Source: Candidatus Harrisonbacteria bacterium (GTDB lineage: Bacteria > Patescibacteriota > Minisyncoccia > UBA6257 > 1-14-0-10-44-23). From it: a DNA stretch of 64,000 bases. The stretch lies in contig JAHFLF010000002.1 in NCBI GenBank assembly GCA_023255625.1, positions 39,734-103,733 on the forward strand. The letters run 5' to 3'. The notes beneath the pieces were generated by a model. That model was given only the letters and a program-made list of their open reading frames with translations. It searched no databases and had not been told where the DNA came from. Positions 25,928 to 60,022 of the stretch are shown here, piece by piece; positions within the stretch are counted from its first letter, which is position 1, and each line of letters begins with the position of its first letter. The position numbers and the translations under genes were made by a program.

Positions 25928-26161
25928 CTATCCCGCCAGGGCGCGCTCCACCTCGCTCTTATTAAAACCGACAAAAATCTGCCCATCAATATCAATCACC
26001 GGCACACCCATCTGACCGGATTTAGTAACCATCTCGTCGCGAGCCGCATCGTCCTCGGCAACATTCACATCAGAATAAGCCAGCCCTTTGCTTTTGAAAT
26101 ATTCTTTGGCCATTTTGCAGTATACGCAGGTCGGAGTCGAATAAACTTTGATTGTTTTCAT
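25928..26161 (-). CDS. Glutaredoxin/NrdH-like small redoxin
   Basis: 77 aa, CVYC active site, KVYSTPTC...GVPVI fold signature. Confidence 0.85.
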   Translation of the reverse strand: MKTIKVYSTPTCVYCKMAKEYFKSKGLAYSDVNVAEDDAARDEMVTKSGQMGVPVIDIDGQIFVGFNKSEVERALAG

Positions 26162-26345
26162 AGAGTAATCGCTAATAATGCGAATGATTAGGTAATAATG
26201 CGAATGAGAGATGAACGATAAATATTATAGCATGCGAAGAAAATAGAAGAAGTCTGAATCGGGGGCGGTTTGCTGACAAAAAGGCGGCCGTAAAGAAGTC
26301 CTGGCCGATCTTTTGTCAGCAAACCGCCAACATGCGCAAACTACT

Positions 26346-40527: not shown

Positions 40528-40580
40528 GCATCGGCCCGGGCCAGAAGCGTCCCCGACGCTCCTCGCCCGGGCCGCTTTCA

Positions 40581-42344: not shown

Positions 42345-42436
42345 ACAGTATTCGCGAACACGCTAATAAACCTAATATGCGTATAAAAACTAACCATTAG
42401 CATATTAGCGTAAATTAGTATGTTAGTGAATACTCT

Positions 42437-43327
42437 CTAAAATGCCCTGATCAGTAGCAAATTTTTCAAATCAATCAGCTGCTGATTGCCGGCTAATTCC
42501 GGAGAGTTCAGCAAAAACAAAACCGTCTGCAGGCGCTCACCGGAACTACCGGCGGCAGAGCCGATCTGGCTTACTAGCGCCAAACCGCCCTGGATAGCAA
42601 TTCTGGTCAGGATAGCTGCGCGCTGCTCCAATAAAGTTGTAGCAACTTGATTACTGCCCTTAAAAGCCGCCTCTCTAGCGATTAGGTCAAAAACCTCTGC
42701 TGTCCGTAATTGTTCTACCGGTGCTTTTTCTGAAAGACCTTCGGTGGCAATCGAAACAAATTTTTCACTTCCTATAACCGATTCAATTTCTGCAACGGCG
42801 ACCGAACTCATCCGCTCTTTAACATCGCCCAAAACCGCCTGATGTGCGTTACTCAAATTTGACCAGCCGGTCATTTCATCGACTAGGCGCAGATTACTCA
42901 TAAATGTCGTAACAATGCCGGCCGACAGCCCCAATTTATCGCCGGCAGCTGACCAATTAAAATGCGAAAGCGTCAGCCCGTATTGATAATTCGCAAGCTG
43001 ATAATCCCGTAGCGCCTCAAGTGTCAATTTATCGTTTTTCGGACTGACCTCGTAAGTCTTTAAAAGTCGGGCTGCATATTGATTTAGCAGCAGAGTCCGA
43101 GAAGCGAGCTTGTCGTCGGCGAATGAACTTTTTATATCATCAACTACGCGCACTAACCGGAAAAATGGATTAGAGCGAACAAATGTAACCTGCTCCACAC
43201 CGAACATATCGGTAGTCGACGATCCCGGGGCCATTGGTTTAGTTTTAGCGCCAACTGGAGTAATCGCTAATACGCTAATAGCCAATAATGCTAATAGAGG
43301 AAAAAATGTTTTTTTTATCTTTTTCAT
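42437..43327 (-). CDS. Hypothetical secreted protein
   Basis: MKKIKKTFFPLLALLAISVLAITPVGA signal peptide; no known motif. Confidence 0.4.
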   Translation of the reverse strand: MKKIKKTFFPLLALLAISVLAITPVGAKTKPMAPGSSTTDMFGVEQVTFVRSNPFFRLVRVVDDIKSSFADDKLASRTLLLNQYAARLLKTYEVSPKNDKLTLEALRDYQLANYQYGLTLSHFNWSAAGDKLGLSAGIVTTFMSNLRLVDEMTGWSNLSNAHQAVLGDVKERMSSVAVAEIESVIGSEKFVSIATEGLSEKAPVEQLRTAEVFDLIAREAAFKGSNQVATTLLEQRAAILTRIAIQGGLALVSQIGSAAGSSGERLQTVLFLLNSPELAGNQQLIDLKNLLLIRAF

Positions 43328-44696: not shown

Positions 44697-46508
44697 CTAC
44701 CCACGAGCCAGATCCCTATAATCTTCTAACAATTTTGTCAATTTTTCGGCATCTTTTGAAAGCTCCGCCTTACGGATCTCCTCTTGCAGCTCCTTCCGGC
44801 GCAAAGACGCCCCCTCTTTCGAAAGCTCGGCAAAAAGCTGCTCTGTCTCCCCTTTTCCCGGCTCAAACCCGGATTCTAAATAAATCAGGTTGACTATACC
44901 GATAAGCTCCGGAGCCAGTGCGCTATCGCTGATTTGCGTGCCGGTAACCAAATTCTGCGCTAAATATTCCAAAACCGGTTGATACGCACTGGGAAAATAC
45001 TTTTTACTATCCAGCGCCTGCTGCATAACTATTTTATCGCGCAGCGCCAGAGAGAGAATCCGCCGGACTATTCTCTCCAGCCGATTTATGGGCTGATCAA
45101 CGAAAGCCACTGCAGATTTTGGCTCCTCTACCTTTGCGCCGGCCGCCGCCGAGATCTTTACAACATTCATTTCGGCGCTAATCGCCTGCTCCGACAATCC
45201 GGTTCTTGAAGCCAGTAGCTGCAGCCAATGCTGCTGCTCAATAGGACTAGCAATTCCTTTTATTTTTTGCAGCGCCTGCCTAATCCCCTTTTTTAAAATA
45301 GCAAAGTCCCCGCCCCGGCCGCGATCAATTCCGTAATAGTTAAAATAATATTCCATTGCCGGAATTGCTTTACCAATTAATTCGGCGAAGTGGCCCGGCT
45401 TATTCTTTGCAATGTCGGCTGGATCTTTAAGTGTCGGGTCGTTTCCGACGCCTGATGGGTCGGAACCCCGACCTTGCACCGCAAGCGTCGGGGCATACAC
45501 GATCACCTTCGTATTCAAGTCATTTTGCTGCGCCAGATCAATCGTCCGCTCCGCCGCCGCCTTGCCGGCACTGTCGTTGTCAAATGAAAGCACTAAATTT
45601 TCTGCCAGCCGGCGCAGTAGCTTCAAATGCTCATCGGTCAGAGCCGTTCCAGAGGTAGCCACCACATTTTTCACTCCGTCCTGGTAAGTCATTAAAAAAT
45701 CCATCTGCCCCTCGACAAGCACCGCCTGATTCTGTTCGCGCACGCTATTTTTTGTCTTCCAAAACCCGTACAGTAACTTTGATTTCTGAAAAATCGGAGT
45801 TTCCGGCGAATTAACATATTTTCCGACCTCCGGACTTTCTTCGCCTGGTTGGACACGCCCCGTGAAACCAATTACCTTGCCGAAGTGATTATGCAAAGGA
45901 AACATAATCCGGTTTCGGAATCGGTCATAATACATCCCGCGCTCGGTTTTAAAAATAAGTCCGGCTCGTTCAATGTCGGCTGCCGAAAAACCAAGTTTGA
46001 CTAGATGCCGCATCAGATTATCGCTACCCGGCAATGCTACGCCAAGCTCAAATTCGTTGATGGTCTCTTCTTTCAACCCGCGATCTTTCAGATACGCAAG
46101 CGCGGGGTTGCCCGCTGCAGCGGGCAACCCCGCGCCCTCCCACATACTTGCCCGAAAATAATCTTTAGCAATCCGGTTAATCTCGTAAAGCACCTCATAT
46201 TTTTTCTGGTCACTCGTCCCGACTCGCTTTAACTCAACTCCGGCTCGGTCAGCCAAAACTTTCAGCGCCTCGATAAATTCAATATTTTCAAACTGCATCA
46301 AAAATGCAAAAATATCGCCGCCCTTGCCACAACCAAAACAATGCCAAATCTGCCGTTCCGGATTGACCATAAACGACGGCGACTTCTCTTTATGAAAAGG
46401 ACACAGCCCTTTCAAGTTCCGGCCAGCCGGTTTAAGCGCAACATAACCGGCGACAAAATCTTTAACATCTATTTTTTGCTTAATCGCGTCGATAGTTGGG
46501 TCGGCCAT
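44697..46508 (-). CDS. dnaG: DNA primase DnaG
   Basis: CHC2 zinc finger (GLCPFHKEKSPSFMVNPERQIWHCFGCGKGGD); TOPRIM core (VLVEGQMD). Contains two GC-rich palindromic in-frame insertions. Confidence 0.9.
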   Translation of the reverse strand: MADPTIDAIKQKIDVKDFVAGYVALKPAGRNLKGLCPFHKEKSPSFMVNPERQIWHCFGCGKGGDIFAFLMQFENIEFIEALKVLADRAGVELKRVGTSDQKKYEVLYEINRIAKDYFRASMWEGAGLPAAAGNPALAYLKDRGLKEETINEFELGVALPGSDNLMRHLVKLGFSAADIERAGLIFKTERGMYYDRFRNRIMFPLHNHFGKVIGFTGRVQPGEESPEVGKYVNSPETPIFQKSKLLYGFWKTKNSVREQNQAVLVEGQMDFLMTYQDGVKNVVATSGTALTDEHLKLLRRLAENLVLSFDNDSAGKAAAERTIDLAQQNDLNTKVIVYAPTLAVQGRGSDPSGVGNDPTLKDPADIAKNKPGHFAELIGKAIPAMEYYFNYYGIDRGRGGDFAILKKGIRQALQKIKGIASPIEQQHWLQLLASRTGLSEQAISAEMNVVKISAAAGAKVEEPKSAVAFVDQPINRLERIVRRILSLALRDKIVMQQALDSKKYFPSAYQPVLEYLAQNLVTGTQISDSALAPELIGIVNLIYLESGFEPGKGETEQLFAELSKEGASLRRKELQEEIRKAELSKDAEKLTKLLEDYRDLARG

Positions 46509-46618
46509 GCCTTTACTATATCCCTACGCGCCCGCTGGCGCAATAAAAGATTGTAAATTTATGAACCCTGCGCTATGTTGAATCTGTGACGCCTCGCGCG
46601 TCCGGAAAGGAGTCGGTC

Positions 46619-46792
46619 ATGACAAGTTTGCAGTTCTTTGGCGGGATCCTGATTCTGGTGGGAATCCTGCTCTTCCTACTCGGCTACAACCTAGTCGGTA
46701 AGAACGGGGGCGGCGTGATAGCCGGACTCTTCGGCATGCTGTCAGTTGCCTGCGCCGCAATCGGTATGGTGTTTTTCCTTGGGAGGGGCTAA
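46619..46792 (+). CDS. Small hydrophobic protein (57 aa, 2 predicted TM), GC-rich
   Basis: SD GGAAAGGAG 5 nt before the ATG at 46619. MTSLQFFGGILILVGILLFLLGYNLVGKNGGGVIAGLFGMLSVACAAIGMVFFLGRG. Confidence 0.45.
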   Translation: MTSLQFFGGILILVGILLFLLGYNLVGKNGGGVIAGLFGMLSVACAAIGMVFFLGRG

Positions 46793-46944
46793 TGAACCCC
46801 TTGCTAACGATTGCCGGCGTCATCCTGGTTCTCGCTAGTGCCGCTCGTGGCTACAGAGCGGTGTGGCAGGAGGAATACGAGGAGGCGGCTGGATACGCAT
46901 TTCTGTTCCTGGTCGGCGCCTGCTTCCTGGTGGCGGCCCGATGA
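46792..46944 (+). CDS. Small hydrophobic protein (50 aa, 2 TM), translationally coupled
   Basis: ATG overlaps the upstream stop (TAATG). MNPLLTIAGVILVLASAARGYRAVWQEEYEEAAGYAFLFLVGACFLVAAR. Confidence 0.4.
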   Translation: MNPLLTIAGVILVLASAARGYRAVWQEEYEEAAGYAFLFLVGACFLVAAR

Positions 46945-47354
46945 TGAACATCTTCGTGCTCGCACCGTTGTGCATCCTTCCCGTGCTGGTGTTCGGCCTG
47001 ATCATGATCGGGCGCGTGCGAGTTATCTTCCGAACCTGCTACCCGCCCGGGGCAGAGCGCCCACCCTGCATCGTTCGGTGGCCACGACATCGCTTCGAGG
47101 CCTGGTTCTACCTCGCTGTAGGATCAGCGCTGATAGGAACGGCGAGCGCCTGCCTCGTCGGAGTTCTGCTTCTACTCGCAGGCGTCGACCAGGTCCGGCG
47201 AGAAGAGATCTTCTGGTTCCAGAGCGCATGGTGCTGGCTGGCCGGTGGAGGCATCCTGGCGAACCTCTGCGGATTCACCACGCAGCGGTTCGATGGACTC
47301 AATCGTGATTGGACGAAATTCAAGGAGGAACAACATAAGTGCGCGACCAGCTAA
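46941..47354 (+). CDS. Small membrane protein (137 aa, 3-4 TM), translationally coupled (ATGA overlap)
   Basis: MMNIFVLAPLCILPVLVFGLIMIG... The ORF track's longer N-terminus (from 46863) is probably spurious. Confidence 0.4.
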   Translation: MMNIFVLAPLCILPVLVFGLIMIGRVRVIFRTCYPPGAERPPCIVRWPRHRFEAWFYLAVGSALIGTASACLVGVLLLLAGVDQVRREEIFWFQSAWCWLAGGGILANLCGFTTQRFDGLNRDWTKFKEEQHKCATS

Positions 47355-47425: not shown

Positions 47426-47516
47426 AAAGCTGCCCCTTGCACTTTTTATATATTTCTAGTATTCTATCTCTTATCTTATTCGCATTATTAGCTATCCGCG
47501 TATTAGCGATTACTCT

Positions 47517-47831
47517 ATGAAACACTGTGAAGTTTGCAAAAAGACCTCAATCATGGCCGGCACCAGAATTCTTTTGCGTGGTCACTACAACCCGACCAAC
47601 TGGAGCCGTAAGTACCCGAACCTGCAAAAATCAGTTAATCCGGCCGGCGAAAAAGTTTTTTGCTGCACCGGCTGCATCCGCACCTTTGGCAAGGTAGCAC
47701 GAATGAAAGATAAAAAAGCAAAAGCAATTGTTGCTGCAGCTGCGAAAGCCGCTGCGCCGAAGCCAGTTGCAAAGCCCGCCGCTCCAGCGAAAGTAAAGAA
47801 ACCGAAAGCCGAAAAGAAAGCGGCAAAGTAG
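47517..47831 (+). CDS. rpmB: Ribosomal protein bL28 with Lys/Ala-rich C-terminal tail
   Basis: C-x2-C...RKYPNLQK...C-x2-C pattern like bL28 (KRRFLPNLQ). Tail AAAAKAAAPKPVAKPAAPAKVKKPKAEKKAAK. Upstream TTGCAC-17-TATTCT promoter-like; downstream hairpin ATCCCT/AGGGAT with T-run at 47858-47892. Confidence 0.6.
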   Translation: MKHCEVCKKTSIMAGTRILLRGHYNPTNWSRKYPNLQKSVNPAGEKVFCCTGCIRTFGKVARMKDKKAKAIVAAAAKAAAPKPVAKPAAPAKVKKPKAEKKAAK

Positions 47832-48081
47832 TTGGAAAAAAATCAAAGTAAATAATCAAAATCCCTTTGCCAGACGGCGAGGGATTTTTGAATGCTGCAG
47901 AATACTAAATATCACTTATTATTACGGCCGTGATAATAAGTGATATTTGAATAAAAAATAATTTTAGAAAAAATATTTTTGTTGCGGCCAACCCGTCAAT
48001 AAGCTATTCTGTAGTCAAAACTTAAATTAAAACAGCTTGTCTAACTAATTGAATTCGCGCTGACAAGTCGTAGGCAGATAA

Positions 48082-48152: not shown

Positions 48153-48414
48153 CCTTTAAATAAATTATGACGGGTAAATATATGGCAGACTCAGTTTCGG
48201 CTGATCCCTTCAGGGTTGTCAGCTTTTCGGCTACCTGCTATGTTGGGGTAGCGAGCCAGAAGCTCTGGCTTCTGTCCTCGCTACCCCGTCGTGCAGAATA
48301 GGCAAAAAGCTGCACAACGCGGTGTAAAGATACTTTTGAGACGGGTTCTGGAGTAAGATAAAATTTCGGTTGTTCGGCCACCGAAATTAAAGTGCCGACT
48401 TAGGGAGATTCCCG

Positions 48415-48849
48415 ATGCAGACGCATGAGCCACTTTTTTGTGTCGCTGGCGGATTTCCCGCTGCAACAATCGCCTGTTTCGGTCCGACCGCGACGGCACA
48501 TTTCGTCGAGATGACCGCAGTAGAGGCGGTCGGCTGGATCCGCGCCAAGGACACGGCAACACTGAAGCTCCTTTGGCGATACGGCCCAGAGGAGTCGCTG
48601 CTTCGTGAATTCATGGCTGGTCAAGGCCTGGCCGACCTGCTCAAGGGACGCGATCGCCCAGACCGTCTGAACGGCAGCCGCTTCGAACGGCTCGAGGCGA
48701 TCATCGTCTTTCGCACCGAAAGCGGGGCTGTCCGTATTCGTCTGTTGACAATGGAGCCAACCTGTCCCCTCGACTCTGAAGAAGAGCCGACGGTCGAGGT
48801 TCAACTGCCACCAGAGGAGATCGCTGACATCAACCAACTCGGCGAGTGA
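48415..48849 (+). CDS. Hypothetical protein (GC-rich island)
   Basis: GGGAG SD 8 nt before the ATG. Competing minus-strand ORFs exist in this high-GC stretch, so the frame choice is tentative. Confidence 0.3.
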   Translation: MQTHEPLFCVAGGFPAATIACFGPTATAHFVEMTAVEAVGWIRAKDTATLKLLWRYGPEESLLREFMAGQGLADLLKGRDRPDRLNGSRFERLEAIIVFRTESGAVRIRLLTMEPTCPLDSEEEPTVEVQLPPEEIADINQLGE

Positions 48850-48964
48850 GTAACCTCGCCAACCGCACCAGGGGCCCCGACGCAAATGCGCTCGGGGCCC
48901 TCGGACTATTCGGTCTCAACGCATAAGCTCCGAAGTCCCGCCAAGATGAGATATAATCGGCTAA

Positions 48965-49033
48965 CCCCCAAACTTTTCCCCAAGATGAGCAGGGATACCT
49001 TTTACTGCTCCCTTTGGGGAAAAGTTTGGGGGG
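48965..49033. repeat. Core-conserved palindromic element, copy 1 (+ orientation)
   Basis: Arm ccccaaacttttcccc, core CAAGATGAGCAGGGATACCTTTTACTGCTCCCTTTGG, arm ggggaaaagtttgggg; the arms are exact reverse complements. Confidence 0.6.
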
Positions 49034-49038
49034 CCGGC

Positions 49039-49103
49039 AACCAAAAATTCCCGCCATAGGGAGCAGTAAATCCTATCTGCTCATCTTGACGGGAATTTTG
49101 GGA
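49039..49103. repeat. Core-conserved palindromic element, copy 2 (- orientation, variant core), convergent with copy 1
   Basis: Arms ccaaaaattcccg / cgggaattttgg; core variant CCATAGGGAGCAGTAAATCCTATCTGCTCATCTTG. Confidence 0.55.
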
Positions 49104-49264
49104 TTGCGCTTTTATTAAAAGACTATTTTTGTTTTTTATATTTCTAAATTAAAATCTTAAAAATCACAAAGGGCCGGACGAAGATCGTCACGGCCCTTGT
49201 GCTGTTGCGAGGACACTTACTTCGGGCGGTCCTCGACTTTGCCCGTTGAGCTTGCGCTCCATGT

Positions 49265-49873
49265 CTACCTCCTCCGTCGCGACTGCGACGGGATCTCGTA
49301 GCCGCCGTAGCGGCTGCGAGGCAGGTTCACGCCTGCCGAGCGGTGGGTCCATGTCCCGCCGCCGTTGCCGCTGTTGTACCCGCCGACATATGCCGGCTGA
49401 TACAGCGGCGTAGAAGCCGACGACGCCCCGATCGCGACGCCGGTCGCATATGACTGCGACTGCGTCGTCGGCTGGGAGTCCGGCGGCTCCCATCCGGCCT
49501 CGATGAGGAGCTTCCTCATCTCGTCCGGCGAAACGCCCCCCAGCCCCGTCGTCGCGGCCGCGCTGACCGCAGCCGCGTTGGCAGGCGTCGGCGTCGCGGA
49601 GTGGGCGCGAATCCATTCCTTGATCAAGGAAGGCGGACCGTTGAACTGGTCTCCTCCCTCCTTGATCAATCGCCTCGTGCCGTCGGGGTCGGTCGAGTTC
49701 GTCGACCCCTCCGAGGAATGCCGCGTGAACTCCACGGATTCCTCGGGCTCGTCCGACTCGACGATCTGAACGAACGTCTGCCGGACCTCTTCCATCGGAT
49801 TCACGGCCCGACACCCCGTCGCGACACCCAGTGTCGTCGCGATGACACACAGAACGATGAGGGGGTTCCTCAT
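49265..49873 (-). CDS. Putative lipoprotein (GC-rich island)
   Basis: Likely start MRNPLIVLCVIATTLGVATGC (lipobox ATGC) with GGAGG SD. Ser/Thr/Gly-rich mature region. Confidence 0.5.
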   Translation of the reverse strand: MRNPLIVLCVIATTLGVATGCRAVNPMEEVRQTFVQIVESDEPEESVEFTRHSSEGSTNSTDPDGTRRLIKEGGDQFNGPPSLIKEWIRAHSATPTPANAAAVSAAATTGLGGVSPDEMRKLLIEAGWEPPDSQPTTQSQSYATGVAIGASSASTPLYQPAYVGGYNSGNGGGTWTHRSAGVNLPRSRYGGYEIPSQSRRRR

Positions 49874-49930
49874 GTTCGTCTCCTTCCGGCCCGTAGGCCT
49901 CCCCAACTGCACTATGCGTTGGTGGAATAT

Positions 49931-49959
49931 ATTATACACCTATTGTATCAAAATGTCAA
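49931..49959 (-). promoter_or_regulatory. Consensus sigma70 promoter TTGACA-17-TATAAT driving the 49265..49873 gene
   Basis: Minus-strand read: tttgacattttgatacaataggtgtataat. -35 region motif ttgacattttgat shared with the other three island promoters. Confidence 0.55.
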
Positions 49960-50000
49960 ATCTAACACCAGCGAATTCAGCAAGTAAGTAAAAGTCCCGA

Positions 50001-50070
50001 GCCCCTAAACTTCCCGCCAAAGGGAGCAGTAAAAGGTATCCCTGCTCATCTTGGCGAGAAGTTTAGGGGC
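50001..50070. repeat. Core-conserved palindromic element, copy 3 (- orientation)
   Basis: Arms gcccctaaacttc / gaagtttaggggc flank the exact complement of the copy-1 core. Confidence 0.6.
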
Positions 50071-50085
50071 TCATTTTATTCATAA

Positions 50086-50292
50086 AAATGAAAAGAGCCG
50101 AGTACCAGTGAAGGTATCCTCGGACTCTTTTCGCTACCGGTATTTCTCGGGTCTTCCTGCCCGCGTTCCCACCGGTAGGAACAACTCTCACTGGAACGAA
50201 CTTTCACCTCTCAATCTGGGAATACTCCTTTTCTTCAGCTACTCTCAACCAGATTCCCCTTTGGTTGAGTGGCTGTGGCGCGAAGTTGCGCC
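50086..50292 (-). repeat. 207-bp duplicated element, copy 1, starting 1-2 nt after a stop codon and ending in a hairpin plus U-run
   Basis: About 99% identical to 52250..52456. On the transcribed strand it begins with a GGCGC-AACTTC-GCGCC hairpin, contains CTCAACCA/TGGTTGAG and GTTCC-TACCGGTGG-GAAC hairpins, and ends GAGTCCGAGGATACC..GGTACTCGGCTC + TTTT. The ORF-track proteins 50051..51097 and 52221..52619 on the plus strand just translate it. Confidence 0.6.
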
Positions 50293-50293
50293 G

Positions 50294-50998
50294 TCAGAGC
50301 CGAGCGAGATCATCGACCAAGCTCTTCGCCAAGTCAGTGTCCCGCACATGGGCATTGATCTGCTCGATCATCTTCGAGAGACCAACGTCCGCGATGAGCG
50401 CCGGATAGCTCCGACGCATCGCCTGCCGCCGATCTTCGGCGACCTTGGGCAGAGGCGGCCTGGACGTGAGAGCTGCGAAATAGCTCTCCGCGTCCTTGCC
50501 GAACGCCTCCAAGGCGGCGTTCTGGACCACCTTCACCTTCGCCGCTGCCTGCGCGTCGGCGAAGTCGCGCATCGCCGCCCGGATCAGATCCGGCGTCTTC
50601 GCCTGCTGCTCGGCCAGGTCCTTGACCTGCGCCGCCAGCGCGACGATGGCCGGGTCGACTCTCGGCGCCTTCTCGAGCGCCTCGAGTCGCTTCTCGAGCG
50701 TGCTCTTGTCGGCGAGCTGCTTCGCCAGCCCGGCGATCTGCGCCTGCAGCTGCTTGAAGGACTCGTCGGACACCTGCGATGCGGCACTCTGTGTGCCGGA
50801 CAGTCTGGCGAGACTCGCCTCCGACGCCGCCAGCCGCGTCTCGAGCCGGTTGATCCCCTCGGTCGCCGCGTCGACGCGCCCGGAGACCTCGTCGGCGTGC
50901 TGACTGCCGCCGCCGAACTGTCCGTAGGAAACCCCCCACGCGACGGCGCCCAGGACCGCGACCGCCCCGACCCACAGAAGAATATTCGTGAGCTTCAT
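50294..50998 (-). CDS. Membrane-anchored coiled-coil protein (GC-rich island)
   Basis: Likely start MKLTNILLWVGAVAVLGAVAWGV (TM anchor) after SD GGAGAGGGAGGG; Ala/Gln/Leu-rich heptad-like remainder. Confidence 0.5.
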   Translation of the reverse strand: MKLTNILLWVGAVAVLGAVAWGVSYGQFGGGSQHADEVSGRVDAATEGINRLETRLAASEASLARLSGTQSAASQVSDESFKQLQAQIAGLAKQLADKSTLEKRLEALEKAPRVDPAIVALAAQVKDLAEQQAKTPDLIRAAMRDFADAQAAAKVKVVQNAALEAFGKDAESYFAALTSRPPLPKVAEDRRQAMRRSYPALIADVGLSKMIEQINAHVRDTDLAKSLVDDLARL

Positions 50999-51079
50999 AA
51001 AACCCTCCCTCTCCGACCCTACTTGGGGTACGGACCAACGGCTTCTGGCCGCTGGCAATCGGGCATTTCCGACCTAAAT

Positions 51080-51109
51080 ATTATAGCATATAAATAGCAT
51101 CTCTGTCAA
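51080..51109 (-). promoter_or_regulatory. Consensus sigma70 promoter TTGACA-18-TATAAT driving 50294..50998
   Basis: Minus-strand read: cttgacagagatgctatttatatgctataat. Confidence 0.5.
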
Positions 51110-51234
51110 GCAATCAAATTGTTATAAAAACGGCACGCCCCCAAAGTACAGTTCTTCTGTATCTCCAGGGGCGCATGCTCGGACTGATTTTGCTTGATTC
51201 CGATGAAGTCCGTAGACATCGGAGCAATTGGTGA

Positions 51235-51900
51235 TCACTTCTTGAAGAAGATCACCGGGTGCGGCTTCTCTGCCGGAGCCGGAGTCGCGTGCGGCTGTCG
51301 GCTCGCCCGAATGAAGTTCAGGACGGCGAAGCCGAGCAGGATCACCAGGACGGCGAAGACAATCCGCAGCGGCCAGCTCGTCCTCGGCTGCTGCTCGACG
51401 ACCTCGTCGGACTCCGGCTGCTCGGAGACCTCCGTCCGATCGTCGGCAGCTGGAGCTGCCGGGCGGCCTCGTCGAAAGACCTCCTGGACAGCCAAGGCGT
51501 CTGGCTGCCTTGCAGCCGCAGGGACTTCGTCGACGAAGGTGTCCTGTCTCGAGATCTCGACCGTCGCCATCCTCGGCTCGGCCGACGACAGGTCCAGGTC
51601 GTCCCCCTCGCCGAAGATCAGGTCGTCGGAGGCATCCTCCGAGTCGCCCTTCTTCCCAGCCGAGAGGTCGATGACGCCCGTCTCCTCTTCGGACCGCACG
51701 CCGGTCAGGTCGAGGTTCTCGACGTCCGCCTTGCGGAACTTCATGACGTCGATCTTCTGACCAGGTTTCGCCGGATCATCCTGCTTCTCGCGTAAGGCGC
51801 GGATCTCTCCCTCCGAGACCAGCCGCTTCAGCTTGGGCTCGTCGATGGTGAGGCGCTTCAGGACCTCGTCGAATGTCAAGAACTCGCCGCTCTTGCCCAT
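51235..51900 (-). CDS. HTH (excisionase/MerR-like), acidic linker and C-terminal TM-anchor protein (GC-rich island)
   Basis: Likely start MGKSGEFLTFDEVLKRLTIDEPKLKRLVSEGEIRALRE (HTH_17-like); Asp/Glu-rich middle; C-terminal WPLRIVFAVLVILLGFAVLNFI helix. Confidence 0.45.
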   Translation of the reverse strand: MGKSGEFLTFDEVLKRLTIDEPKLKRLVSEGEIRALREKQDDPAKPGQKIDVMKFRKADVENLDLTGVRSEEETGVIDLSAGKKGDSEDASDDLIFGEGDDLDLSSAEPRMATVEISRQDTFVDEVPAAARQPDALAVQEVFRRGRPAAPAADDRTEVSEQPESDEVVEQQPRTSWPLRIVFAVLVILLGFAVLNFIRASRQPHATPAPAEKPHPVIFFKK

Positions 51901-51980
51901 GATCGTCTCCCTTCCCTCCGTGCAAAAACACAGAGGAACGCAGCACAACGCCGCGTTTAACGGTCATTTCCGTCAAAATT

Positions 51981-52009
51981 AACATAGCATTTTATTATCA
52001 AAATGTCAA
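51981..52009 (-). promoter_or_regulatory. sigma70-like promoter TTGACA-17-TATGTT driving 51235..51900
   Basis: Minus-strand read: tttgacattttgataataaaatgctatgtt. Confidence 0.45.
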
Positions 52010-52049
52010 ATCTAACACCGCGAGTTCAACAAGTAAGTGCAAAGCCGCA

Positions 52050-52118
52050 AACCTAGAGTTTCCCCCAAGATGAGCAGGGATACCTTTTACTGCTCCCTTT
52101 GGGGGAAACTCTAGGTTT
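52050..52118. repeat. Core-conserved palindromic element, copy 4 (+ orientation)
   Basis: Arms aacctagagtttccccc / gggggaaactctaggttt; core identical to copy 1. Confidence 0.6.
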
Positions 52119-52130
52119 GCGATTCGGAAT

Positions 52131-52202
52131 GAAAACTTAAGATTCTCCCCATAGGGAGCACTAAATCCTATGTGCTCATCTTGGGGAGAATCTTAAGTTT
52201 TC
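52131..52202. repeat. Core-conserved palindromic element, copy 5 (- orientation, variant core with compensatory stem change), convergent with copy 4
   Basis: Arms gaaaacttaagattctcccc / ggggagaatcttaagttttc. Inner stem GAGCAC/GTGCTC replaces GAGCAG/CTGCTC. Confidence 0.55.
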
Positions 52203-52249
52203 TGATTAATCAACATCGGTATGTGTTTTGGGTTAAATACATTCAACAA

Positions 52250-52456
52250 AAAAGAAAAGAGCCGAGTACCAGTGAAGGTATCCTCGGACTCTTTTCGCTA
52301 CCGGTATTTTTCGGGTCTTCCTGCCCGCGTTCCCACCGGTAGGAACAACTCTCACTGGAACGAACTTTCACCTCTCAATCTGGGAATACTCCTTTTCTTC
52401 AGCTACTCTCAACCAGATTCCCCTTTGGTTGAGTGGCTGTGGCGCGAAGTTGCGCC
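52250..52456 (-). repeat. 207-bp duplicated element, copy 2, directly after the TAG stop of 52456..53043
   Basis: One mismatch against copy 1 (tatttttcgg vs tatttctcgg). Confidence 0.6.
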
Positions 52457-53043
52457 TACGGGAGCTGGGCGGTCGCCAGCCCGATCAGCCCACTGTGCTT
52501 GGTGGCCACGACGGCCGCCAGACAGGTGGCGTTGTCGGGAAAGGGCTTGCCGCCGTTGCCCACCCTGCGGAACTTCCGCACCAGGAACACCGCTTCGGCG
52601 CTCCTGCCGTCGTCGATGAGCGCCGCGGCCTCGGCGAGCAGCTTGTCCGCGACCGGACCCGCTGCCGGAGCCGACTTCTTCTCGAGGACATCGACCCGCG
52701 CCCCGAGGTCGACGACCTCGTCGGCGATCGCGCCGACGACCGTGGACGATGCCCAGTCCTTGGGGTTGAACCCCGCGGACGACGCCGGCACGGCAGTCTG
52801 CGCGGCGACCGGAGCGGTGGCAGAGGCCGCCGGCGCAGGGGCCGCCACCGCCACCGGCTGGCTCACGACCGGCGTCGGCAGTGTCGCAGCCGGAGCCGCC
52901 ACGACAGCCGCCGGCGTGGCGGCAGTCGCCTGCTGCGGGCACGAACCCGCAGTCGGATCGGCGCTGACGCCGATCCCGAACACGCTCCGACATCCTCCCG
53001 CCGCGAGCACCGCGGCGAGCACGACCAACCTTCGCGTCTGCAT
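52456..53043 (-). CDS. Putative lipoprotein, Ala/Pro-rich (GC-rich island)
   Basis: MQTRRLVVLAAVLAAGGC signal/lipobox; PAAVVAAPAATLPTPVVSQPVAVAAPAPAASATAP linker; SD GGGAGGAG. Confidence 0.5.
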   Translation of the reverse strand: MQTRRLVVLAAVLAAGGCRSVFGIGVSADPTAGSCPQQATAATPAAVVAAPAATLPTPVVSQPVAVAAPAPAASATAPVAAQTAVPASSAGFNPKDWASSTVVGAIADEVVDLGARVDVLEKKSAPAAGPVADKLLAEAAALIDDGRSAEAVFLVRKFRRVGNGGKPFPDNATCLAAVVATKHSGLIGLATAQLP

Positions 53044-53123
53044 CGTTCGATCTCCTCCCGGGGTTTTACCCCGTTCTAATGGACCCGCCCGACCCTCGCT
53101 GGGTCAGTCCGAATCGCCTAAAA

Positions 53124-53152
53124 TATATAGCATATTGCAATAAAAATGTCAA
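53124..53152 (-). promoter_or_regulatory. sigma70-like promoter TTGACA-17-TATATA driving 52456..53043
   Basis: Minus-strand read: tttgacatttttattgcaatatgctatata. Confidence 0.45.
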
Positions 53153-53191
53153 ATATCGTTCTATTGAGTTCAAAACTAGGCCAGCATTTAG

Positions 53192-53263
53192 CCAATGCAA
53201 AATCCGCACCAAGATGAGCAGGGATACCTTTTACTGCTCCCTATGGTGCGGACTTTGCATTGG
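53192..53263. repeat. Core-conserved palindromic element, copy 6 (+ orientation); a degenerate partner lies at about 53271-53300
   Basis: Arms ccaatgcaaaatccgcacc / ggtgcggactttgcattgg (1 mismatch); core CAAGATGAGCAGGGATACCTTTTACTGCTCCCTATGG. Confidence 0.55.
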
Positions 53264-53391
53264 CTGTCTCGCCAAATAGATCTTATCTGCTCACCTTGGG
53301 GAGAAGCTTGGGGCAACTGCTCTAGCCAAAATGACCGCTCTATAGTTCAATATTGCATTTCTGTTAGATTTTCAAATAAAAACTTAAATCT

Positions 53392-53425
53392 CCATGTTAC
53401 AGCGTACTAGTACGCTGTAACATGG
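53392..53425. repeat. Perfect 34-bp palindrome
   Basis: ccatgttacagcgtac-ta-gtacgctgtaacatgg with no flanking T/A run; lies between the island and the leuS terminator. Confidence 0.6.
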
Positions 53426-53463
53426 CTAGGAAATAAACTGAAGTAAAAAATGAGCGACAAGAT

Positions 53464-53520
53464 AAAAAATTACGGGATTTTGGCAATAGAACCCCGTTTG
53501 CCAAAATCCCGTAATTTTTT
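53464..53520 (-). terminator. Bidirectional intrinsic terminator downstream of leuS
   Basis: 23-bp perfect inverted repeat aaaaaattacgggattttggcaa / ttgccaaaatcccgtaatttttt with A/T runs on both sides. Confidence 0.65.
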
Positions 53521-53540
53521 ATTGCCCGCCAAAACAAAAA

Positions 53541-56034: not shown

Positions 56035-56937
56035 TCACTTCTTAATTCCGAAAATGCGTTCCGCATTTTCGGTGGTTATTCTTGCCATTTCATCATACGA
56101 CACTCCCTTAATTTCCGCTAATTTTTTTACAACCTCTGTAATATATGCCGGCTCGTTGCGCTTCCCGCGGTGCGGCTCGGGGCTAACATACGGGGCGTCG
56201 GTTTCGGTCAGCAGCCGGTCAAGAGGAATCATTTTAATCTGCTCATCATAGTCCGGGCACTTGCCCGCCTTAGGCGGGAAGGTAATGACACCACCGAATT
56301 CAAAGTTAAATCCTGCTTGAAGAAATTTCTTGGTCATTGCTGCGGAGCCAACATAGAAATGTAGGACTCGCGGAAGTATGAAGTTAGAATTATGAATTAT
56401 GGCAAGGAGGTCTTCGTAAGCATCATCGGTGCTTTTGCCGGGCTTGCCCTCCGTAGCTTTAGCGAAGGAGGGCCGGCAATGAATCATGAGCGCTTTACCG
56501 ACCTCCTGCGCAATCCGTACATGCTGCAAAAACACATCTTTCTGTTTTATTCGTACTTTCGTAAAAGATTCGTCATTCGTAGCTCTATAGTAATCCAACC
56601 CGCACTCGCCGATAGCAACGACTTTTGGGTCGCGCGCTAAATTCAAATAAAAATCGTAATCAAACTCTTCCTCGCGACTCGTAAAACTCTTTGCCGCCGC
56701 TCCGCCCCCAAGCTCATTCTCATCATGATACGACTTTGCGGTGTGAACAGGATGCAAGCCGATCGCGGCGTAAACATCCTTTTCATAAAAGTTGGCAATC
56801 TCAACCGCCCGCGCAGAGGTATCCCGCTGCGTACCAACATTAATGATTGAAACGCCGGCAGCTAAAGAGCGGTCAATGACCTCTTTCCAATCCTTTTCAA
56901 AAGCGGCAAATTGTACATGCGTATGGCAATCGAACAT
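56035..56937 (-). CDS. tatD: TatD-family metal-dependent hydrolase/DNase
   Basis: MFDCHTHVQF (HxH), later GLHP and GECGLDY motifs. Confidence 0.8.
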   Translation of the reverse strand: MFDCHTHVQFAAFEKDWKEVIDRSLAAGVSIINVGTQRDTSARAVEIANFYEKDVYAAIGLHPVHTAKSYHDENELGGGAAAKSFTSREEEFDYDFYLNLARDPKVVAIGECGLDYYRATNDESFTKVRIKQKDVFLQHVRIAQEVGKALMIHCRPSFAKATEGKPGKSTDDAYEDLLAIIHNSNFILPRVLHFYVGSAAMTKKFLQAGFNFEFGGVITFPPKAGKCPDYDEQIKMIPLDRLLTETDAPYVSPEPHRGKRNEPAYITEVVKKLAEIKGVSYDEMARITTENAERIFGIKK

Positions 56938-57296
56938 AAAGAGTAATCGCTAATATACGAATAGCGAATAATGCTAATGGAAATATGATACCAGAAAAAT
57001 TAATTTCAGATAGCCGCTTGACTTAAATTCATTGCTGTTATAGATTACTAAGCAACGGAGAGAGAAAATCTCTCTGGTAAACATAACCTGTGAATCGGAG
57101 TTGGGGTTGAGATGTGGGTTACACGGCCCACCCCGTTAGTCGAAAGAGTCTTGTAAAGCGACTTGTCGAGCCAACTGGAGGGTCTTCCGATCCCTCTTCA
57201 TAACTCGGCATTAGCCACCCTAACTCCTCCATCCTCGCGCGACCCGACAGAAGCTCTGCCGGGTCTTTGATTTTTAAAATATAATCGCTCAACTTG

Positions 57297-57615: not shown

Positions 57616-58191
57616 CTACAAAAGCTCTCTTGTAGTTCCCGAACTGCCAACCTCTATGATCTCTACATATTCCTCAATGCTAAATTTCAAAAGATCATTG
57701 ATAAATTCTTTTGGCAATAAAAACTTACCTATCCAGACGCTGTTCTGCAACTTTTGGAAGCCGAGTCTTTTGAGAACTGCACGGAGCCATTCGCGCTGCT
57801 TACGCAGCTTTTCTGGAATGTCATATGCGATAACGATTAACTTCTTGCCCGGCTTGGCCTCGTAGCTAGCGCCGATTGCTCTGCGTGTATTCTCGGCACG
57901 CAAAACATCGCGGCGCCTCCTACCGTCTGCTGTGAGAGAGTATCTAATTACATCACCAACCTTCCGCGCTGAAATAAGCTCATTTTTCTTAATGTAAGAA
58001 AGCATATTCATATAACGCATATAGCGCTTGCGTCGCTGTACACGCAGAACCCTTGCCTCTGCTACACTACCAAAGATATTTTGAGTGAACTCGTCGGTCA
58101 TCGTTAGCACCCCAATCACCTCTACTGCCGTCAGGGCGCCGTCGCTAAGCGCATCAAGGATTTTAATTGTCAGATTCGCCGGCTTTCCCAT
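57616..58191 (-). CDS. PaaX-family-like regulator: N-terminal winged HTH plus C-terminal Cas2-like domain
   Basis: C-terminal KKLIVIAYDIPEKLRKQREWLRAVLKRLGFQKLQNSVWIG closely resembles the Cas2 core (VV-YDI-d-krr-kv-k-L-yG-rvQnSVF). No CRISPR array or other cas genes in the window. Confidence 0.45.
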   Translation of the reverse strand: MGKPANLTIKILDALSDGALTAVEVIGVLTMTDEFTQNIFGSVAEARVLRVQRRKRYMRYMNMLSYIKKNELISARKVGDVIRYSLTADGRRRRDVLRAENTRRAIGASYEAKPGKKLIVIAYDIPEKLRKQREWLRAVLKRLGFQKLQNSVWIGKFLLPKEFINDLLKFSIEEYVEIIEVGSSGTTRELL

Positions 58192-59954: not shown

Positions 59955-60022
59955 AAAAAGCCCGGCATCGTTTCGCGGGACTGTGAGTCAAGTGTCTCGC
60001 GAAACGAACCGGGCTTCATTTT
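59955..60022 (-). terminator. Long bidirectional intrinsic terminator after the 60030..60725 gene
   Basis: AAAAAGCCCGG-cat-CGTTTCGCGGGAC...GTCTCGCGAAACG-aa-CCGGGCTT-ca-TTTTTT. Confidence 0.55.

What the first reader, a model, noticed from the sequence alone, without database searches (positions are those of the whole stretch)
48965..53300. Novel palindromic element family: invariant 37-nt core, arms that differ between copies but always stay self-complementary, mostly in convergent pairs
There are six full copies and at least one degenerate copy, plus a truncated core (ccaagatgag) at 48941-48950. All share the core CAAGATGAGCAG-GGATACCTTTTA-CTGCTCCCTTTGG, or a second variant CAAGATGAGCAG-ATAGGATTTA-CTGCTCCCTATGG. 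The 13-20-nt arms differ completely between copies yet are perfect reverse complements within each copy. Examples are ccccaaacttttcccc/ggggaaaagtttgggg, cctagagtttccccc/gggggaaactctagg, gaaaacttaagattctcccc/ggggagaatcttaagttttc and gcccctaaacttc/gaagtttaggggc. Copy 5 has a compensatory double change in the inner stem (GAGCAC/GTGCTC versus GAGCAG/CTGCTC). The CCAAGAT/CCTTTGG junction pairs only if G-U wobble is allowed. Covariation plus the G-U requirement argue for selection on an RNA hairpin structure rather than plain DNA repeats. Copies 1/2, 4/5 and 6/7 form convergent pairs about 10 bp apart, placed between the end of one island transcription unit and the promoter of the next. This is the inverse of attC sites or DUS-pair terminators, where the ends are conserved and the centre varies. 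Possible roles are a protein-binding core held at a hairpin tip (recombination site, partition or defence-related recognition site), an insulator or terminator between island cassettes, or the footprint of a mobile hairpin element that regenerates its flanking stem on insertion.
Basis: seen in the sequence. Interest (0 to 1): 0.85.

Follow-up and report, generated by a model that had tools for sequence, protein, structure and literature searches.

The report
Conserved-core hairpins bounding foreign-gene cassettes
A small, previously undescribed family of long DNA/RNA hairpins sits at every boundary between recently acquired, separately promoted foreign genes in an uncultured ultra-small (CPR) bacterium. 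Each hairpin has an invariant mismatched core and a freely co-varying stem, and most likely acts as a boundary or insulator element, though its function is not proven.

Summary
There are six full hairpins (62-76 nt), one truncated copy and one half copy at 48918-53312. I also found an eighth, diverged copy outside the island at 26264-26328.

All copies share the same plan: a variable lower stem, a conserved G·U plus AU/CC internal loop (AAGAT/CCTTT), a 5-6 bp co-varying upper stem, and a conserved apical loop (GGAYWYCTTTTAC). Half of the pairs (15 of 30) show double-sided changes and 97% of cells are paired.

The arms are not unrelated. Within the island they are diverged homologues, 41-76% identical.

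The host is a ~45% GC Parcubacteria-like CPR bacterium. The island is an array of cassettes, each made of a host-type consensus promoter, a GC3~0.85 foreign ORF (one Planctomycetes-like) and a terminator.

The first hairpin met by transcription leaving any gene is always core-forward. Convergent pairs therefore face both directions.

There is no Rfam match. No copy was found in GTDB genomes, JGI metagenomes, IMG/VR, phages, plasmids or two syntenic relatives. No recombinase lies within 83 kb.

My best reading (0.35) is an orientation-specific single-strand hairpin that insulates or processes transcripts. The rivals are cassette recombination sites and selfish REPIN-like repeats. RNA versus DNA action is unresolved.

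The parts
48918..48950 (+). c0: half copy (5' arm plus CCAAGATGAG), broken off after GAG. It lies just after the terminator-like hairpin of ORF E.
   Evidence: Sequence read.
48965..49032 (+). c1: full hairpin, variant 1 (loop GGATACCTTTTA), perfect 17-bp arms. It is the left member of convergent pair c1/c2.
   Evidence: (-49.2 kcal/mol, z -6.9), and 35 (84 bits).
49041..49102 (-). c2: full hairpin, variant 2 (loop ATAGGATTTA, CCCTATGG). It is the first hairpin after the terminator of gene A.
   Evidence: (-33.9 kcal/mol, z -6.4), and 35 (73 bits).
49999..50072 (-). c3: solitary full hairpin, variant 1. Its core is flipped relative to c4 and c6, although the flanking promoter module is homologous. 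It lies between the terminator of gene B and the promoter of gene A.
   Evidence: (-54.2 kcal/mol, z -9.3), and 35 (99 bits).
52046..52121 (+). c4: full hairpin, variant 1, perfect 24-bp lower stem. It is the left member of pair c4/c5 and lies upstream of the gene C promoter.
   Evidence: (-55.7 kcal/mol, z -10.7), and 35 (99 bits).
52131..52202 (-). c5: full hairpin, variant 2, with a compensated upper stem (GAGCAC/GTGCTC). It is the first hairpin after the 209-nt tail and terminator of gene D.
   Evidence: (-43.6 kcal/mol, z -9.0), and 35 (84 bits).
53190..53265 (+). c6: full hairpin with a variant-1 loop and variant-2 3' junction (CCCTATGG). It lies upstream of the gene D promoter.
   Evidence: (-47.9 kcal/mol, z -8.6), and 35 (93 bits).
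53266..53312 (-). c7: degenerate variant-2 copy (CAAGGTGAGCAGATAAGATCTA...) lacking the 3' half of the core. It abuts c6 with no spacer and is the first family element after the leuS terminators.
   Evidence: One search shows no stable fold (z -0.3 and -2.0).
26264..26328 (-). c8: diverged family member outside the island. It keeps AAGAT, the GGA..TTTAC loop and CCTTT, but its upper stem is fully compensated (CGGCC/GGCCG) and its arms are unrelated. It lies 17 nt after the DsbA-like stop and 31 nt before the glutaredoxin -10 box.
   Evidence: (33.9 bits, E 5e-7 over the window), and 73.
49931..49959 (-). Promoter of cargo gene A (TTGACA-17-TATAAT). It is part of the duplicated hairpin-plus-promoter module.
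51981..52009 (-). Promoter of cargo gene C (TTGACA-17-TATGTT, with a TG-extended -10). A 24-nt stretch is identical to the gene A module.
   Evidence: (D8).
53124..53152 (-). Promoter of cargo gene D (TTGACA-17-TATATA), belonging to the same module family.
51080..51109 (-). Promoter of cargo gene B (TTGACA-18-TATAAT). Its 15-mer ATGCTATAATATTTA is identical to the host glutaredoxin promoter next to c8.
50084..50292 (-). 209-nt shared 3' tail of gene B. It begins 2 nt after the stop codon and ends in an intrinsic terminator whose loop (GGATACCTTCACTGG) resembles the variant-1 core loop.
   Evidence: (D1, 99% identical).
52248..52456 (-). Second copy of the 209-nt 3' tail, following gene D. It begins at the stop codon.

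Best explanation
The elements are a lineage-specific family of orientation-specific boundary hairpins that work in single-stranded, folded form.

Anatomy (shown). A long lower stem of any sequence presents two recognition features to a trans-acting factor. One is a fixed mismatched block (G·U followed by AU opposite CC). The other is a fixed 12-13-nt apical loop on a 5-6 bp upper stem.

Proposed action (inferred). The hairpin most likely acts in RNA, on transcripts that run past the ordinary terminators. A core-forward hairpin facing the incoming polymerase would give a defined, protected or processed 3' end, in the manner of an RNase III-type site or a factor-bound stop. This would shield the strong consensus promoter that follows. 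Two hairpins placed head to head would insulate in both directions.

History (inferred). The hairpin(s) plus a host-type promoter were duplicated as one module each time a foreign ORF was installed in the island.

Shown: the structure, the covariation, the positions, the orientation rule and the module homology. Inferred: transcription of the hairpins, the trans-acting factor and the insulating effect.
For: 1. A single-strand fold is indicated, not a duplex operator. The stems co-vary: 15 of 30 pairs in the island, and 3 further upper-stem pairs change in c8. Meanwhile the unpaired centre and the mismatched block are conserved across the most distant copies (AAGAT, GGA-N4/5-TTTAC, CCTTT).

2. 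The asymmetric mismatches survive in every copy while the arms stay near perfect. The core is therefore selected, not just young. It is 37/37 identical in c1, c3 and c4, while the arms are 41-76% identical. The adjacent promoter spacers of genes A and C are visibly more alike than the arms (read from alignment A2; no figure computed).

3. Orientation rule. The first family hairpin met by transcription leaving each gene is core-forward. This holds for c7 after leuS, c5 after D, c3 after B, c2 after A, c8 after the DsbA-like gene, and c0/c1 after the + strand ORF E. c3 occupies the same module position as c4 and c6, with homologous flanks, yet its core is flipped. So the only hairpin at that junction faces the sense transcript.

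4. c8 sits in ordinary host DNA. It lies 17 nt after a stop codon with no other terminator, directly upstream of a host promoter. This means the family is a host regulatory or boundary device, not something imported with the island.

5. A lower stem of 19-24 bp with an internal loop has the anatomy of phage T7 intercistronic RNase III sites (established knowledge).

6. The terminator loop of the 209-nt tail shares 13 of 15 bases with the core loop. This hints at an RNA loop motif read by one factor.
Against: - No expression data exist.
- In the island every forward hairpin lies downstream of a good intrinsic terminator, so little RNA may reach it.
- There is no U-tract after the stems, so they are not canonical terminators themselves.
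- G·U pairs are almost absent from the variable arms (2 cells), and both strands fold equally well as RNA and as DNA. That pattern fits a DNA palindrome at least as well.
- The orientation rule rests on about four independent events (p ~ 0.06).
- Only 8 copies are known, all in one species-level lineage.
- The loop resemblance to the 209-nt tail could be chance (about 0.1 expected per window, by hand estimate).
Confidence: 0.35

Rival explanations
1. The hairpins are recombination sites of a cassette system acting on folded single-stranded DNA. Each promoter-gene-terminator unit would be a mobile cassette bounded by hairpins. An unlinked structure-specific recombinase or HUH nuclease would read the conserved core, possibly nicking at the invariant TTTAC at the 3' edge of the loop. 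The variable stem would only need to pair.
For: - The hairpins coincide exactly with cassette boundaries.
- The cargo is heterogeneous and recent: GC3 is 0.84-0.87 against ~0.5 in the host. Gene C has Planctomycetes homologues in an unrelated native context and gene B is an orphan.
- A forward copy lies at the 3' side of every unit, as attC does in integron cassettes.
- Half and truncated copies (c0, c7) sit at the two edges of the array, and c7 is cut by c6.
- The two syntenic relatives fetched carry no family member in that spacer; the spacers are too diverged to align, so an insertion is not shown.
- The stems are almost purely Watson-Crick and fold well as DNA.
- The junction between cargo and 'vector' is sharp, with the 209-nt tail starting 0-2 nt after the stop codon.
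Against: - No integrase, transposase, HUH or Y1 protein was found among the Pfam results obtained for most called genes in 83 kb. That covers the window plus 19 kb of extension; several ORFs between about 11.5 and 34.6 kb were identified only by synteny.
- The outermost positions, where strand exchange normally occurs, are the variable ones.
- No target duplications and no tRNA-derived att repeat are present.
- No presence/absence polymorphism appears among four independent assemblies.
- c8 carries no cargo.
- The three pairs look like duplicates of one ancestral pair rather than independent joints.
Confidence: 0.25
2. The hairpins are selfish or neutral fold-back repeats (REPIN/BIME- or MITE-like). 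They would have spread by duplication together with neighbouring DNA. Their arms would stay complementary through intra-palindrome templated repair rather than through selection for a function.
For: - The inverted doublets with two alternating sequence variants resemble E. coli BIMEs and REPINs.
- The genome keeps many unrelated long perfect palindromes.
- A relative carries an unrelated ~70-nt palindromic insertion flanked by a TATA duplication, so small palindromic insertions occur in this clade.
- Double-sided changes without G·U intermediates are what quasi-palindrome correction produces (established mutational mechanism).
Against: - Templated correction should also erase the three mismatched positions of the core, yet they are invariant in all eight copies, including the distant c8.
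- The centre is conserved and the ends are not, which is the opposite of transposase-recognised MITE ends.
- There is no GTAG/CGTC tag, no TSD and no RAYT.
- The copy number is low and clustered (7 of 8 copies in 5 kb).
Confidence: 0.2
3. The core is a duplex-DNA operator: an inverted repeat CCAA-N3-GAGCAG-N12-CTGCTC-N3-TTGG bound by a dimeric regulator that controls the adjacent promoters. One candidate is the HTH_17 membrane protein of gene C.
For: - The hairpins lie 30-50 nt upstream of promoters.
- An HTH_17 protein is encoded in the island (E 0.003), and another at 40081-40527.
Against: - For an operator the half-sites should be conserved and the centre free. Here the half-sites of c8 are replaced by a different self-complementary sequence, while the centre and the non-palindromic mismatch block are conserved.
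- 17-24 bp of additional perfect palindrome is unnecessary for an operator.
- Orientation relative to the promoter is not constant (c3 versus c4 and c6).
Confidence: 0.05
4. The hairpins are a TIGR-like stem-loop guide-RNA array. Such arrays have variable palindromic stems flanking guide units and are known from CPR bacteria and phages.
For: TIGR stem-loop arrays have 'variable but consistently palindromic' stems and occur in CPR genomes (PMC12045711).
Against: - In TIGR units the loop holds two variable 8-12-nt spacers between short box C/D motifs. Here the whole 37-nt interior is invariant.
- The units are not tandem, being 1-2 kb apart with genes between them.
- No Nop-domain Tas gene appears among the Pfam results obtained for most called genes in 83 kb.
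Confidence: 0.02

Closest known systems
REP / BIME / REPIN elements of proteobacteria (RAYT-associated)
   Same: - They are extragenic palindromes.
- Two sequence variants alternate in inverted orientation as doublets.
- They lie between transcription units.
- Proposed roles are mRNA 3'-end protection and insulation.
   Different: - The units here are 62-76 nt, not 20-40 nt.
- There is no GTAG/CGTC tag.
- The centre is conserved and the stem variable, rather than the whole unit being conserved.
- Only 8 copies are known, 7 of them in one 5-kb island.
- No RAYT gene was seen.
Phage T7 intercistronic RNase III processing hairpins (R0.3-R1.3 etc.)
   Same: - The anatomy matches: lower stem, conserved internal loop, upper stem and loop.
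- They are repeated at boundaries between separately expressed genes.
- They are orientation-specific.
   Different: - T7 sites lie inside polycistronic transcripts, whereas these lie beyond intrinsic terminators.
- Cleavage here is untested.
- The lower stems here are longer and perfect.
Integron attC sites
   Same: - They are folded single-strand hairpins in which structure matters more than sequence.
- One site sits at the 3' side of each gene cassette in an array of unrelated, horizontally acquired genes.
   Different: - The conservation pattern is inverted: attC keeps the R''/R' and L boxes at the stem base and varies in the centre.
- The cassettes here carry their own promoters and terminators.
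- No IntI or attI is present.
- Boundaries carry paired, convergent sites.
IS200/IS605 subterminal hairpins and derived PATEs
   Same: They are imperfect hairpins with conserved mismatches, read in single-stranded DNA by a small HUH enzyme. A conserved TTAC-like motif is also present (TTTAC here).
   Different: - LE and RE hairpins lie in the same orientation on one strand, and are short (~20 nt) and conserved between copies.
- No TnpA or TnpB is present here.
- The TTTAC lies inside the loop, not 5' of the hairpin.
TIGR stem-loop arrays (Tas/Nop RNA-guided systems)
   Same: They have variable yet always self-complementary stems flanking repeated units, and they occur in CPR bacteria.
   Different: - Loop content is variable (spacers) in TIGR arrays and invariant here.
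- TIGR units are tandem and sit next to a Tas gene. Neither is the case here.
Phage 'morons' (promoter-gene-terminator units of deviant GC content)
   Same: The cassettes of the island are autonomous units with a sigma-70-type promoter and an intrinsic terminator around a gene of foreign composition.
   Different: - The setting is chromosomal, in a CPR bacterium.
- The units share promoter modules, a common 209-nt 3' tail and boundary hairpins.

Membership tests
Any Rfam 15 family | Score at or above the family's gathering threshold | tested here: not met
   One search found only four tRNAs in the window. One search (E<=10) gave only sub-threshold miRNA-type generic hairpin hits (<=32.5 bits against thresholds of 63-90) on the copies.
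REP/BIME/REPIN | 20-40-nt imperfect palindrome carrying a conserved GTAG or CGTC tag at one end | tested here: not met
   The units are 62-76 nt. No GTAG or CGTC appears at the foot of any copy in the printed flanks.
REP/BIME/REPIN | Inverted doublets of two alternating sequence variants | tested here: met
   c1/c2, c4/c5 and c6/c7 are variant-1(+) / variant-2(-) pairs spaced 0-9 nt apart.
REP/BIME/REPIN | High genome-wide copy number with an associated RAYT (Y1 transposase) gene | tested here: inconclusive
   Eight copies were found in ~83 kb, 7 of them clustered. No Y1 or HUH domain appears in the Pfam results obtained for most called genes there. The rest of the genome was not available.
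Integron attC | Conserved R''(RYYYAAC)/R'(GTTRRRY) boxes at the stem base with a variable centre | tested here: not met
   The stem bases differ between copies and do not fit the consensus, while the centre is invariant.
Integron attC | IntI integrase and attI adjacent to the array, with promoterless cassettes | tested here: not met
   No integrase was found in the island or in the Pfam results obtained for most called genes in 83 kb. Every cassette has a consensus promoter.
MITE | Conserved terminal inverted repeats and flanking target-site duplication | tested here: not met
   The termini are the least conserved part. No direct repeat flanks any copy.
IS200/IS605 ends / PATE | Left and right subterminal hairpins in the same orientation, with TnpA (Y1) or TnpB | tested here: not met
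   Unit-bounding hairpins are inverted relative to each other. No tnpA or tnpB was found (and the locus Pfam lists).
TIGR stem-loop array | Tandem units whose loops hold two variable spacers flanked by box C/D motifs, next to a Nop-domain Tas gene | tested here: not met
   The interior is invariant over 37 nt. The units are 1-2 kb apart, and no Nop domain appears in the neighbourhood. The definition is taken from PMC12045711.
Canonical intrinsic terminator | GC-rich stem immediately followed by a U-tract | tested here: not met
   The terminator scan flags none of the full hairpins, only an internal fragment of c2. The sequences after the stems lack T-runs.
RNase III processing hairpin (T7 type) | About 20 bp of duplex interrupted by a conserved internal loop | tested here: met
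   The lower stems are 17-24 bp with an invariant internal loop.
RNase III processing hairpin (T7 type) | Cleavage by RNase III within a transcript | not testable with these tools
   No RNA data or enzyme assay is available.

The most novel reading that the evidence does not exclude
The island is a gene capture-and-expression platform of a CPR symbiont. Foreign ORFs, at least one from Planctomycetes (a proposed host group for Parcubacteria), would be installed between a standard host promoter module and a standard 3' tail. The conserved-core hairpins would be the structure-specific single-strand recombination sites that delimit and shuffle these cassettes, recognised by a recombinase of a so far unknown kind encoded elsewhere. 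In effect this would be an integron-like system with inverted site logic and self-promoted cassettes.
Probability: 0.15. Interest if true: 0.85.

Novelty: new variant of a known kind. Interest (0 to 1): 0.55.

Why it matters
The hairpin has a clear recognition architecture: a fixed mismatch block and a fixed loop on a freely co-varying stem. It also has a defined orientation rule. That makes it a clean candidate for a new cis-acting boundary element in Candidate Phyla Radiation bacteria, whose gene regulation is almost unexplored.

Its setting may matter more than the hairpin itself. A streamlined symbiont carries an array of recently acquired, un-ameliorated foreign genes. Each is fitted with a near-consensus host promoter, and two share a 3' tail that starts at the stop codon. 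If the hairpins are the joints of that array, they would expose how such bacteria domesticate host-derived genes. They would also add a new site type to the short list of structure-specific recombination systems. If they are insulators, they would be a natural counterpart of the hairpin insulators used in synthetic circuits.

Tried and rejected
- Rfam at gathering and at E<=10 gave nothing specific.
- The exact core pattern gave 0 hits in IMG/VR and 0 in GTDB species genomes.
- A relaxed-stem core pattern in JGI metagenomes gave 9 hits. All were coding-sequence chance matches without hairpins.
None has the inner stem or arms.
- blastn of the whole island against phage and plasmid collections gave no match.
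- The covariance model and a structural regex were run on two syntenic relatives (69% and 62% DsbA identity) and on 19 kb of contig extension. No members were found.
- Four independent assemblies were compared for cassette or core-orientation polymorphism. They are identical, and their contigs simply break inside the repeats.
- A tRNA-Pro-derived att repeat was sought. The longest match is 9 nt, consistent with chance.
- Pfam and PHROGs scans of the cargo proteins gave only a weak HTH_17 hit on gene C. The NCBIfam call failed on a bad coordinate and was not repeated.
- A gene B homology search found it to be an orphan.
- TIGR-Tas stem-loop arrays were considered after a literature hit and rejected.
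- A peptide reading of the core (MSRDTFYCSLW...) was rejected, because variant 2 stops after 3 codons.
- A second covariance model including c8 was not built, because MAFFT shifted its 3' half by one column.

Full report
**1. What is in the sequence**

The 12-mer CAAGATGAGCAG occurs with 0-1 mismatch at seven sites, all between 48981 and 53298. In total there were 22 hits at <=2 mismatches against 4.4 expected, and 0 of 100 shuffles reached that.

Repeat analysis and reading of the sequence give six complete units:
- c1 48965-49032 (+)
- c2 49041-49102 (-)
- c3 49999-50072 (-)
- c4 52046-52121 (+)
- c5 52131-52202 (-)
- c6 53190-53265 (+)

There is also a truncated unit, c7 (53266-53312, -), which abuts c6, and a half unit, c0 (48918-48950, +).

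There are two variants. Variant 1 has the loop GGATACCTTTTA (c1, c3, c4, c6). Variant 2 has the loop ATAGGATTTA and the 3' junction CCCTATGG (c2, c5, c7). c6 is a hybrid of the two.

Each complete unit folds into one long hairpin. As RNA the energies are -32 to -56 kcal/mol, with z-scores of -6.4 to -10.7 on either strand. As DNA the units fold equally convincingly. c7 does not fold.

**2. Anatomy and covariation**

On the six-copy alignment with the structure I named, 97% of cells are paired and 15 of 30 pairs carry changes on both sides. No shuffle out of 500 reaches the observed values. Sliding the partner by one to three columns drops pairing to 35-58%.

The unit consists of the following parts:
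- A lower stem of 17-24 bp with variable sequence.
- An invariant block in which G pairs with U/T, and then A and U face C and C (AAGAT opposite CCTTT).
- A 6-bp upper stem. In c5 this stem carries a compensated G-C to C-G change.
- A 10-12-nt conserved loop.

Anchored at the core, the island arms are 41-76% identical (mean 57%, against 28% for shuffled arms, 0 of 2000). They are therefore diverged homologues that have kept pairing. Only c1, c4 and c5 are perfect. c2 and c3 have a U·G, c2 also has a C·U, and c6 has an A·C.

**3. A member outside the island**

A covariance model built from the six copies was run over the whole window without filters. It recovered the six copies plus a new hit at 26264-26328 (-) with 33.9 bits and E about 5e-7.

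Its sequence is GGCGGTTTGCTGACAAAAGAT-CGGCC-AGGACTTCTTTAC-GGCCG-CCTTTTTGTCAGCAAACCGCC.

It keeps AAGAT, the GGA...TTTAC loop and CCTTT in the right structural places, including the same three mismatched positions. Its upper stem is replaced by a different self-complementary sequence, and its arms share only 6-18% identity with the island arms.

This distant copy shows which features are constrained: the unpaired and mismatched positions. It also shows which features only need to pair: both stems. A duplex operator would show the opposite pattern. The pattern seen here is what a motif read in folded, single-stranded form should look like.

**4. Context**

The host DNA is about 45% GC and encodes DnaG, sigma-70, LeuRS, GroEL and similar proteins. 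The DsbA-like neighbour of c8 has its best named relatives in Candidatus Sungbacteria and Yanofskybacteria, which are Parcubacteria within the CPR.

The region 48155-53330 follows tRNA-Pro(GGG). It holds four minus-strand ORFs with GC3 of 0.84-0.87, against about 0.5 for host genes:
- A, 49265-49873, a lipoprotein-like product.
- B, 50294-50998, with a TM segment plus coiled coil. It is an orphan.
- C, 51235-51900, with HTH_17 plus a TM segment.
- D, 52456-53043, a lipoprotein-like product.

The + strand ORF E (48415-48849) also lies in this region.

Gene C has hundreds of homologues at 45-57% identity. The one homologue that carries an organism name is from a Planctomycetes bacterium MAG. There the gene sits in a conserved chromosomal context (RadC, COX3) without the other cargo genes. 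The native genes start with GTG and have unrelated upstream DNA.

Each island gene has its own AT-rich, near-consensus promoter (TTGACA-17/18-TATAAT) and its own intrinsic terminator.

The promoter modules are homologous to one another. Gene B's promoter shares an exact 15-mer (ATGCTATAATATTTA) with the host glutaredoxin promoter next to c8. The regulatory parts are therefore host-type, and only the ORFs are foreign.

Genes B and D share a 209-nt 3' tail that is 99% identical. It starts 0-2 nt after the stop codon and ends in a terminator.

The same arrangement appears in four independent assemblies, whose contigs break inside the repeats. The island is therefore not an assembly chimera.

**5. 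Position and orientation of the hairpins**

Read in the direction of transcription (minus strand), the order is:
- leuS, terminators, [c7 forward][c6 reverse]
- promoter, D, tail/terminator, [c5 forward][c4 reverse]
- promoter, C, terminator, promoter, B, tail/terminator, [c3 forward]
- promoter, A, terminator, [c2 forward][c1 reverse]
- c0, then the end of E (which runs the other way)

The first family hairpin met by a polymerase leaving any gene is always core-forward. This includes c8 after the DsbA-like gene and c0/c1 after E. The convergent pairs therefore face both directions.

c3 has the same flanking module as c4 and c6 but a flipped core. This shows that the 37-nt centre can invert between its own arms. 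It also shows that at the one single-hairpin junction, the retained orientation faces the sense transcript. I count about four independent events behind this rule, so it is suggestive rather than significant.

**6. Distribution**

No copy was found beyond this lineage:
- The exact core gave no hit in IMG/VR or in GTDB species genomes.
- Relaxed patterns in JGI metagenomes, GTDB and IMG/VR returned only chance matches without stems.
- The phage and plasmid collections gave nothing.
- Two syntenic relatives carry no family member in the DsbA-glutaredoxin spacer; those spacers are too diverged to align with ours, so an insertion is not shown. They have no family member in about 38 kb.
- One relative has an unrelated palindromic insertion with a TATA duplication in the same promoter.
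- Nineteen further kilobases of the same contig hold no copy.
- No integrase, transposase, HUH or Nop-domain protein appears among the Pfam results obtained for most called genes in those 83 kb. Several ORFs between about 11.5 and 34.6 kb were identified only by synteny.

**7. Interpretation**

The conserved, asymmetric, unpaired features on co-varying stems show selection on a folded single strand. Whether that strand is RNA or DNA cannot be decided here, for four reasons:
- The 'G-U requirement' is part of a mismatch block that exists in DNA too.
- Variable-arm G·U pairs are rare.
- Both strands fold alike.
- This genome maintains many unrelated perfect palindromes.

I favour an orientation-specific boundary or insulator hairpin acting on read-through transcripts (confidence 0.35). 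The reasons are the orientation rule, c8's position directly after a stop codon in ordinary host DNA, the T7 RNase III-site-like anatomy, and the loop motif shared with the tail's terminator.

The main rival (0.25) is that the hairpins are single-strand recombination sites of a cassette system. This would explain their exact coincidence with the joints of a heterogeneous, recently acquired gene array, and the broken copies at its edges. It lacks a recombinase, polymorphism and conserved termini.

A selfish REPIN-like repeat (0.20) fits the doublets but not the invariant mismatches. A duplex operator (0.05) and a TIGR-type guide array (0.02) are contradicted by the conservation pattern.

**8. 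Comparison and novelty**

The family is not a member of REP/BIME, attC, MITE, IS200/IS605-end, TIGR or any Rfam family. In each case a defining feature was tested and not met (see the membership table).

It works most like a REP/BIME doublet or a T7-type processing hairpin, and it is laid out like an attC turned inside out. I rate it a new variant of a known kind (structured intergenic boundary repeats).

There is a 15% chance that it marks a new cassette-capture system in CPR bacteria, which would be of high interest.

Noticed in passing
window 48155-53330: This is a five-kilobase array of autonomous cassettes next to tRNA-Pro(GGG). Each cassette has a near-consensus host-type promoter, a foreign ORF (GC3 0.84-0.87 against ~0.5 in the host) and a terminator. 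Gene C is Planctomycetes-like and gene B is an orphan. The host is a Parcubacteria-like CPR bacterium, a group proposed to associate with Planctomycetes (PMC9040852).
   Followed up: partly
window 50084-50292 and 52248-52456 (minus strand): A 209-nt, 99%-identical 3' tail is shared by the unrelated genes B and D. It starts 0-2 nt after the stop codon, is predicted to be structured (z -3.2) and ends in a terminator. The terminator loop GGATACCTTCACTGG matches the hairpin core loop at 13 of 15 positions. It has no Rfam match.
   Followed up: partly
window 46586-47354 (+) and 40081-40572 (+): There are further GC-rich insertions in the host DNA. One holds two or three small membrane-protein ORFs (GC 0.61, GC3 0.68) between dnaG and a ribosomal-protein-like gene. 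The other is a 148-aa HTH_17 protein (GC3 0.69) followed by an 82%-GC hairpin. Neither has family hairpins.
   Followed up: no
window 26159-26175 (-), 47503-47519 (+), 56937-56953 (-), 43254-43270 (-), 42342-42358 (-): The leader motif TTAGCGATTACTCT(ATG) recurs directly at start codons of host genes (5 sites against 0.12 expected). At two of these sites it is preceded by ATTCGCATTATTAGC repeats. It may be a lineage-specific 5'-UTR or translation-initiation element in place of a Shine-Dalgarno sequence.
   Followed up: partly
L018 8300-8395 (GCA_964641225.1): In a relative, a ~70-nt palindromic element (arms CCCCCACACCAAA/TTTGGTGTGGGGG) flanked by a TATA duplication is inserted between the TTGACA and TATACT boxes of the glutaredoxin promoter. 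It is MITE-like and unrelated in sequence to the family studied here.
   Followed up: no
window 53462-53522, 53392-53425, 47907-47948, 59955-60019, 23457-23500, 46096-46139, 20290-20357, 59393-59461, 42357-42424: The genome carries many unrelated, very long (15-25 bp) perfect or near-perfect hairpins. Most are intergenic and several are bidirectional terminators with A/T tracts; one (46096-46139) lies inside dnaG. This suggests a general tendency of the lineage to keep perfect palindromes.
   Followed up: partly
window 57616-58191 (-): This is a 191-aa protein with a PaaX central Cas2-like domain (PF20803, E 4e-14; a weaker CRISPR_Cas2 hit). No CRISPR array was noticed in the repeat and RNA scans that were run, none of which was aimed at this locus.
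   Followed up: no
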